Shown here one piece after another: positions 8,893-9,361 of a stretch of 64,000 nt of DNA (the first letter of the stretch is position 1; each line of letters begins with the position of its first letter). This DNA comes from Eledone cirrhosa (taxonomy: Eukaryota). The position numbers and the translations under genes are program-made. The notes beneath the pieces are model-generated. The model did no database searches. It was given only the letters and a program-made list of their open reading frames with translations, and had not been told where the DNA came from. The stretch is taken from the NCBI GenBank assembly GCA_964016885.1, contig OZ024766.1:10788001-10852000 (forward strand). The letters are read 5' to 3'.

Positions 8893-9253
8893 AGAAAGTG
8901 AGGTTTTTTTACAAATTGAAAAATAACCGAGGTGTCCTACAAGAGTGAAAGTATAAAGAAAAAGAGATGAAATCGAAAAAGCAACTGGAGTCTAATTTTT
9001 TAAAAATTATATATATTTATTTGGTTCCTTTATCGGCTTCGCAGTTCTTCTGCTTTTCAAAAGTAGAGTTGAGATGGACGGTCTGTGGTTTGTCTCACAT
9101 CTGATGTGAGACAAACCACAGACCCTCCATCTCAACTCACCTTTTGAAAAGCAGAAGAACTGCGAAACCGGTAAAGGAACCAAATAAATATATATATATT
9201 TTTTTAAAATAAGACTCCAGTTGCATTTTCGATTTCATCTCTTTTTCTTTATA
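8893..9253. mobile_element. Foldback element family E: ~150-bp arms, palindrome centre at 9101
   Basis: 8952-9100 is the reverse complement of 9102-9253 (GTCTCACATC-T-GATGTGAGAC at the centre); the left arm extends further to (TA)n. Confidence 0.9.
9140..9177 (+). ncRNA. Minimal type I hammerhead ribozyme with U3-A8 variant core (family E)
   Basis: CCUU-UUGAAAA-GCAG(AAGAA)CUGC-GAAA-CCGG-UA-AAGG: helices I and II are fully paired, helix III is palindromic ACCGGU, GUA site at 9171-9173. The minus-strand arm (~9027-9065) is mutated (GAAG-CCGA). Confidence 0.75.
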
Positions 9254-9267
9254 TAGGAACCAGTAAG

Positions 9268-9361
9268 ACCCCGACGGCTGAGCTCAAGCCGTTTCGACGG
9301 CTAATTCTGGACTAAATGAAAATTTATCCTGGTATTTAAATAGCCGATCTTCTCAATGGGT
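9268..9361 (-). ncRNA. Type I hammerhead ribozyme with U3-A8 variant core (family F)
   Basis: Minus strand: ACCCA-UUGAGAA-GA(U)CGGCUA...UAGCCGUC-GAAA-CGGC(UUGAGCUCA)GCCG-UC-GGGGU. GUC site, one mismatch at the first pair of helix I. Confidence 0.7.

What the first reader, a model, noticed from the sequence alone, without database searches (positions are those of the whole stretch)
9140..9361. Two adjacent, unrelated hammerheads with a compensatory U3-A8 catalytic core
Seen: family E has UUGAAAA and family F has UUGAGAA where CUGANGA is expected, with the rest of the fold in place (helix II, GAAA, helix III, GUA or GUC site). Established: C3-G8 is a required Watson-Crick pair, and U3-A8 is a rare natural variant that retains activity. 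Inference: the double change in two families argues for selection on catalysis. Standard CUGANGA searches would miss them, and family F has seven fragments in this window alone, so it may be a large unannotated ribozyme family.
Basis: partly seen in the sequence, partly recalled or inferred. Interest (0 to 1): 0.75.

Follow-up and report, generated by a model that had tools for sequence, protein, structure and literature searches.

The report
Penelope hammerheads with shifting core pair
Two different Penelope-type jumping genes meet tail to tail here, each ending in a hammerhead RNA motif whose U-A core pair is already in print; the new part is that one family also multiplied while that pair was mismatched, and some of its short copies begin at the predicted cut site, which likely means the mismatched RNA was still being cut.

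Summary
Both motifs are real type I hammerheads on opposite strands, at the 3' ends of two Penelope-like retrotransposons that share a TA target. E belongs to a Neptune/Nematis-type family (16,810 pattern matches, U3-A8 fixed, predicted dimer). F belongs to a Hydra-clade family (5,371 matches, predicted monomer). U3-A8 in Penelope hammerheads was published in 2014, so the headline is known. The compensation claim holds for E but not cleanly for F: 1,431 of 5,371 F matches are C3·A8, forming an older grade from which the young U3-A8 copies arose; a small sister subfamily is U3·G8; only 7 are canonical. Short F copies start at the predicted cut site in 19 of 69 breakpoints, including 8 of 35 of the C3·A8 haplotype, so the mismatched form was likely still cut. 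A sister of E with many intact ORFs also carries A13C. Both window copies are probably impaired. This scan had already noted U3-A8 Penelope hammerheads, the C3·A8 subfamily and cut-site starts on other DNA; tying the starts to the mismatched haplotype is what is added here. No RNA or cleavage data.

The parts
8891..9101 (-). Family E, inverted arm with tail; its hammerhead (9064-9027) has decayed at 15.1 and 16.2
   Evidence: 93% identical to the other arm; tail matches other E copies; changes seen
9103..9249 (+). Family E, 5'-truncated 3' end (pseudo-LTR) of a Neptune/Nematis-type Penelope-like element, without tail
   Evidence: same motif lies about 1.0-1.1 kb behind 775-aa RT + GIY-YIG ORFs in full-length copies
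9140..9177 (+). Family E minimal type I hammerhead, core U3-A8, palindromic helix III, predicted cut after 9173
   Evidence: sequence; predicted dimer -21.1 versus monomer -0.4 kcal/mol; genome counts
9250..9255 (.). TATATA target left between the two 3' ends
   Evidence: sequence; other E and F copies end at (TA)n at these same points
9256..9367 (-). Family F type I hammerhead, core U3-A8, long helix II, stable helix III, extended helix I; predicted cut between 9273 and 9272; this copy has C2.1A
   Evidence: genome counts
9256..10147 (-). Family F, 5'-truncated copy (3' UTR only) of a Hydra-clade Penelope-like element, between TA runs
   Evidence: about 900 nt shared with other copies; a copy 99% identical over the motif has the endonuclease coding region upstream; intact 786-aa frame in L129

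Best explanation
The stretch is the junction of two independent, 5'-truncated Penelope-like retrotransposon insertions at one TA target, and each carries its family's pseudo-LTR hammerhead motif, predicted to cut the element's own RNA (E as a dimer, F as a monomer). Shown: the motifs, their parent elements, their copy numbers and core states. Inferred: in a full-length tandem transcript the upstream hammerhead cuts a fraction of the RNAs and makes their 5' end; reverse transcription starts at one of two sites just downstream of the motif, usually copies uncut RNA straight through the hammerhead, and sometimes runs off a cut 5' end, leaving short copies that begin at the cut site. The motif is under purifying selection, but the 3-8 pair is loosely constrained in F, whose master lineage multiplied as U3·G8, U3-A8, C3·A8 and again U3-A8. 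The two window copies are fossils: E is locked in a 300-bp palindrome in any read-through RNA and F has lost its 1.1-2.1 pair.
For: Parents: 775-aa RT + GIY-YIG ORF2 with 409-aa ORF1 for E; 786-aa frame with Hydra marks for F. Counts. Ladder tree of 80 copies with positions 3, 7, 8 left out: C3 copies are a basal grade, a C3 clade is rejected (p-AU 7.6e-5), the youngest tips are U3-A8. U3·G8 subfamily with its own diagnostic letters. Other core and stem columns stay conserved within the C3 grade: 3 of 42 polymorphic against 122 of 434 in the UTR, p 0.001. Starts at the cut site: 19 of 69 breakpoints over 13 offsets, 15 of 34 without microhomology. Folding. Published precedent.
Against: No RNA or cleavage data. 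Nearly all copies run through the cut site, so cutting is not required for copying, as also found in vitro for an anole element (PMC11167929). The 30 columns just upstream of the motif are also fairly conserved (4 of 30, p 0.055), so part of the conservation may be regional. E shows no clear peak at its cut site (9 of 65 at +1, 11 at -1, 14 at +3). The cut site is followed by a G run that can absorb neighbouring breakpoints. The root of the F tree rests on short, gappy rows and the outgroup was not one clean side of a branch.
Confidence: 0.8

Rival explanations
1. Strict compensation: U3 and A8 were selected together in both families because catalysis needs a Watson-Crick 3-8 pair; mismatched copies are dead.
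For: E fits. In F the youngest subfamilies, with intact ORFs, are U3-A8 and fold into the hammerhead as the lowest-energy form; canonical cores in 26 of 26 published Hydra rows.
Against: 1,431 of 5,371 F matches are C3·A8 and form a long series of successive subfamilies, not scattered mutants; their haplotype shows starts at the cut site; a U3·G8 subfamily exists.
Confidence: 0.15
2. The F motif is kept as a structure (protein-binding or reverse-transcription start signal, or promoter) and is not cut; the starts at +1 come from a transcription start, a polymerase stop or slippage in the G run.
For: Copies end exactly at the base of the extended helix I; hammerhead mutants do not affect insertion in vitro and no RNA reads ended at the site in the anole element; the lineage tolerated three states of the 3-8 pair; the flank upstream is also conserved.
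Against: A stop at structure would fall at a helix edge (+4/+5 or -1), not at +1. In 7 inverted pairs both arms end at or next to the cut site with a short spacer. Unpaired catalytic positions are invariant across the C3 grade (0 of 12).
Confidence: 0.2
3. C3·A8 motifs are themselves inactive, and their RNAs were cut in trans by paired U3-A8 copies through the self-complementary helix III loop.
For: The F loop 3 contains the palindrome GAGCUC; U3-A8 sister subfamilies exist in the genome; two loci pair a C3 arm with a U3 arm. The C3 copies folded here are predicted to misfold by 3.5-5.3 kcal/mol.
Against: The ladder suggests one dominant master at a time, and the U3-A8 outgroup looks older (arm divergence 10% in the one pair measured); core conservation within the C3 grade would be unexplained.
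Confidence: 0.15

Closest known systems
U3-A8 minimal hammerheads of Cercyon Penelope-like elements, Schistosoma mansoni (Cervera and De la Pena 2014, PMC4209133; parts 1-2 of 4 read)
   Same: Type I motif in the pseudo-LTR, U3-A8 core, mostly single truncated copies, pairs on opposite strands, palindromic helix III and predicted dimer (E)
   Different: Here in Neptune/Nematis-type and Hydra-clade elements; E has no extra base after A9; F has a stable helix III and a very long helix II; amplified C3·A8, U3·G8 and A13C subfamilies are not mentioned in the parts read
Hydra clade of Penelope-like elements (Craig et al. 2021, PMC8557442; section 11, passages, supplement part 2 read)
   Same: RWK-like motif (RWR here), DKT, CxCx5C linker, CxxC and CxH around the endonuclease E/N, C-terminal GIY-YIG, TA target, hammerhead present
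   Different: All 26 Hydra-group rows of their File S2 have C3-G8; family F has almost none (7 of 5,371)
Natural U3-A8 hammerheads of Perreault et al. 2011 (PMC3088659; section 8, supplement legends read)
   Same: Same core covariation
   Different: Described as rare; their active natural variants named in the text (A6C, A6a, U13a, U15.1-A16.1) do not include C3·A8 or A13C; figures not seen
Poseidon element PAc of Anolis (PMC11167929; passages read)
   Same: Two reverse-transcription start sites downstream of the hammerhead giving copies with and without a tail; uncut RNA is the main template; AT-rich target
   Different: PAc has C3-G8, single mutants at 3 or 8 (to G or C) are inactive, and no reads ending at the cut site were found; F shows genomic starts at the cut site

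Membership tests
Type I hammerhead ribozyme | Core U4 G5 A6 N7, A9, G12 A13 A14, A15.1-U16.1, H17 in type I order | tested here: met
   Both motifs. The E sister family fails A13 (C in 25 of 25 motifs).
Type I hammerhead ribozyme | Watson-Crick pair between 3 and 8 | tested here: met
   U-A in both window copies; across F not met in 1,431 of 5,371
Type I hammerhead ribozyme | Three helices closing the core, with covariation | tested here: met
   E: paired changes against the sister family in helices I and II. F family: hammerhead is the lowest-energy fold in 2 of 2 youngest copies; the window copy lacks the 1.1-2.1 pair
Type I hammerhead ribozyme | Self-cleavage after H17 | not testable with these tools
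   Indirect only: F copies starting at +1; E inconclusive
Penelope-like element hammerhead (pLTR) | Lies in the terminal repeat of an RT + GIY-YIG element with tandem and inverted copies | tested here: met
Minimal dimeric PLE hammerhead (family E) | Palindromic, loop-less helix III that needs a second copy | tested here: met
   ACCGGU; predicted -21.1 as dimer, -0.4 as monomer
Hydra clade (family F) | DKT, RWK-like motif, CxCx5C linker, CxxC and CxH motifs, C-terminal endonuclease, TA target | tested here: met
   L129 frame: RWR, SDKTG, CNCPDRSIC, CNLC, CKH against the definition; Pfam gave no hit
Hydra clade (family F) | Placement in an RT tree with named Hydra elements | not tested
   reference proteins were not available as session sequences
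Neptune clade (family E) | C-terminal GIY-YIG with CX2-5CxxC linker and CCHH motif, DKG | tested here: met
   CGRSNCGTC linker, CKGC, EADKG, Pfam RVT_1 then GIY-YIG
Neptune clade (family E) | Distinction from Nematis, which shares the linker | tested here: inconclusive
   no tree with named references was built
Naiad clade | N-terminal endonuclease, DKA motif | tested here: not met
   both parents have a C-terminal endonuclease and DKG or DKT
Non-LTR retrozyme | Non-coding tandem monomers each with a hammerhead | tested here: not met
   tandem units are 3-4.7 kb and code for RT; definition

The most novel reading that the evidence does not exclude
A natural hammerhead cut its RNA in the animal with a C3·A8 mismatch at the pair thought to be essential: the Hydra-clade F lineage walked through U3·G8, U3-A8, C3·A8 and back to U3-A8 while staying active, each step preserved as a datable subfamily, and a sister of family E is spreading now with three core changes (C3U, G8A, A13C). 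The element's protein or a partner RNA would have to rescue these cores.
Probability: 0.35. Interest if true: 0.65.

Novelty: new member of a known kind. Interest (0 to 1): 0.4.

Why it matters
The U3-A8 core itself is not news. What matters is that this genome holds a natural mutation series of a ribozyme core inside a retrotransposon, with a genomic read-out of cutting (copies that start at the cut site). It makes two open questions testable with a few short RNAs: whether Penelope-like elements need their hammerhead to cut, and how far host or element proteins relax core rules measured on naked RNA. It also shows that CUGANGA-only searches miss over 20,000 motif copies in this one genome.

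Tried and rejected
Rfam scans: only repeat-driven microRNA matches among the 150 rows shown of 710 for the window, and no hammerhead among 31 rows for 8900-9450. Naiad reading (a clade reported to lack hammerheads): rejected by domain order. One RNA with both motifs: rejected, opposite strands. Alternative register for F (CUGAGA with N7 deleted): rejected, since position 7 varies among G, U and A while 8 stays A. First F tree (41 rows, only 4 C3, midpoint root) suggested a nested C3 clade; the larger tree with an outgroup replaced it. Arm-to-arm divergence separates C3 from U3 pairs only weakly (2.75% in 8 pairs against 2.18% in 12). A protein-level root for F was tried, but the outgroup copies were too truncated. 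Sequencing runs: no RNA holder listed; contigs were laid, the E part was skipped as a repeat, and contigs cannot show RNA ends. Cut-site test for E: inconclusive, because the site lies in an A run (rows 1-81 of 365 considered, 9 dropped by eye as small indels). Pfam finds nothing in Hydra proteins. Five papers that bear on core mutants were not held (Lunse 2017, Przybilski and Hammann 2007, Nelson and Uhlenbeck 2008, Martick and Scott 2006, Scott 2013).

Full report
Observation. The window comes from a 3.0-Gb genome rich in TA repeats. Motif E lies on the + strand at 9140-9177 and motif F on the - strand at 9361-9269; both have UUGANAA in place of CUGANGA, with GAAA, helices I-III and a GUH site in type I order. 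E sits in a palindrome (8952-9253, 93% identity) whose other arm carries a decayed copy. F is the 3' end of a 0.9-kb non-coding fragment running to 10147. Six bases of TA separate the two 3' ends. Seven F fragments are in the window; 1 of 7 has the 5' core box. Rfam has no hammerhead match here.

What the families are. [quoted passage not shown] That is the Neptune/Nematis architecture; I did not separate the two. F lies behind a 786-aa frame with RWR, DKT, CxCx5C, CxxC and CxH, the marks of the Hydra clade (PMC8557442 section 11). Both occur as partial tandems and inverted pairs ending at (TA)n, with and without a tail. So the families are unrelated, and the adjacency follows from a shared target (inference).

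Core states across the genome. Exact patterns with positions 3, 7 and 8 free give 16,810 matches for E and 5,371 for F, and 0 for reversed controls; these are lower bounds. E: 99 of the first 100 listed are U3-A8; 59 matches have C3 and all 59 keep A8. A sister family with 56% protein identity shares UUGAAAA and shows paired changes in helices I and II, so U3-A8 is old and the fold is selected. That sister has C13 (23 of the first 100 rows, counted by eye; 25 of 25 motifs in 16 loci) and many intact 784-aa frames. F: 1,431 are C3·A8, 70 are not A8, and 7 of those are C3-G8.

History of F. A tree of 80 copies (chosen from 107 by shared upstream length; positions 3, 7, 8 dropped) is a ladder. 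C3·A8 copies form a basal grade of successive subfamilies, a C3 clade is rejected (p-AU 7.6e-5), and U3-A8 copies, including the window's, form the top, with the shortest tips. The outgroup holds U3-A8 copies with A7 and a U3·G8 subfamily with its own diagnostic letters (19 rows). All 26 Hydra-group rows in File S2 of PMC8557442 are C3-G8. A path from C-G through U·G and U-A to C·A and back to U-A fits, but its first steps are inferred: the outgroup rows are short and one row fell on the wrong side of the root. Within the C3 grade the other 12 core columns have 0 polymorphic, stems 3 of 30, the UTR 122 of 434 (p 0.001 for core plus stems); the 30 columns just upstream have 4 of 30, so some of this is regional.

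Trace of cutting. This test was prompted by earlier scan notes. A pattern that keeps the sequence after the F cut site and demands foreign letters 9-11 bases before it gave 894 matches; the first 100 were fetched. After dropping 31 that are whole motifs with small indels, 19 of 69 breakpoints fall on +1, against about 5 expected over 13 offsets (p 7e-7). Without microhomology it is 15 of 34, after one more row was dropped as an indel. In 7 inverted pairs both arms stop at or within two bases of the site, with a short spacer. One tail position separates C3 from U3 copies that share the older anchor (14 versus 6 copies with known core, no overlap, one further copy with a third letter). By it, C3·A8-type copies start at +1 in 8 of 35 (5 of 15 strict, p 0.004) and young U3-A8 copies in 8 of 27 (7 of 15 strict). 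Against: +1 opens a run of four G, which can absorb neighbours; three strict rows (L326, L332, L334) could owe a G to the flank, and without L334 the C3 count is 4 of 14 (p about 0.02, hand calculation); the haplotype key rests on about 20 copies; a transcription start or cutting in trans would look the same. For E no clear peak appears.

Mechanism. Established: hammerheads cut after H17 and need the 3-8 pair, and U3-A8 is active in vitro (PMC3088659 section 8; PMC3884650 passages). Predicted: E is inactive alone and folds as a dimer (-21.1 against -0.4 kcal/mol); young F copies fold as a monomer hammerhead at the energy minimum, the two C3 copies tested lie 3.5 and 5.3 kcal/mol above it, the window copy 1.3. 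Shown: F copies end at the base of the extended helix I or at the tail end, like the two start sites of the anole element (PMC11167929 passages), and nearly all run through the cut site. Inferred: cutting trims the 5' end of a minority of RNAs and is helpful but not needed for copying. The window's copies are probably impaired: the E arms pair with each other (-217 kcal/mol) and F has C2.1A (family C: 138,245 of 138,482 contig depth in run X1).

Comparison and novelty. U3-A8 in Penelope-like hammerheads is published, with about 1,300 hits in Schistosoma mansoni (PMC4209133, parts 1-2 of 4 read; supplements not read). I found no report of amplified C3·A8, U3·G8 or A13C subfamilies, or of genomic starts at the cut site, in searches (listings; papers read as stated), but five key papers were not held, among them Lunse et al. 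2017 on Penelope hammerhead variants, so absence from print is not established. I recall that A13 contacts the 3-8 pair in the full-length structure; I could not check it. Earlier scan notes on this genome report the C3·A8 subfamily and the cut-site starts separately; one predicts poor cutting for the mismatched form, which my haplotype result argues against.

Verdict. Interest 0.4, carried by the testable mismatch series.

Noticed in passing
window 8618-8675 (+); second copy within 21851-22046 (-): A third hammerhead-like motif about 470 bp upstream, with a canonical CUGAUGA core, palindromic UGAUCA helix III and AUAC/GUAU helix I; read by eye, repeat seen.
   Followed up: no
window 31958 (+), 31843 (-), 59367 (+), 52278 (-), 30088 (-), 31374 (+): Further type I hammerheads with canonical C3-G8 cores; 31843/31958 are an inverted pair.
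   Followed up: no
L169-L184, e.g. L173:6019-6075: Sister family of E with core U3-A8 plus A13C and many intact ORFs, so apparently active with three core changes.
   Followed up: partly
L112 near 604 (+): Another long-helix-II family with a UUGAUAA core and helix III CUACGUAG, 3 rows in the scanned loci.
   Followed up: no
window 20648-20727, 21383-21449, 60327-60446 and many loci: Most short F copies are inverted pairs whose 5' ends seem to cluster in the 3' part of loop II, so they carry only the 3' half of the hammerhead; not quantified.
   Followed up: partly
L129:2979-3180: The F reading frame is open from inside helix III of the upstream hammerhead, about 67 codons before the first ATG.
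   Followed up: no
L177, L178, L180, L202, L205: ORF1 and ORF2 of both E-type families overlap by 60-90 nt in different frames and ORF2 lacks an early ATG, suggesting a programmed frameshift.
   Followed up: no
window 48305-48883 (+): 192-aa frame resembling the restriction-like endonuclease end of a non-LTR retrotransposon (recalled resemblance; Pfam gave nothing).
   Followed up: partly
window 16001-16753 and 36738-40397: Two minisatellite arrays, with units of about 87 bp and 30 bp.
   Followed up: no
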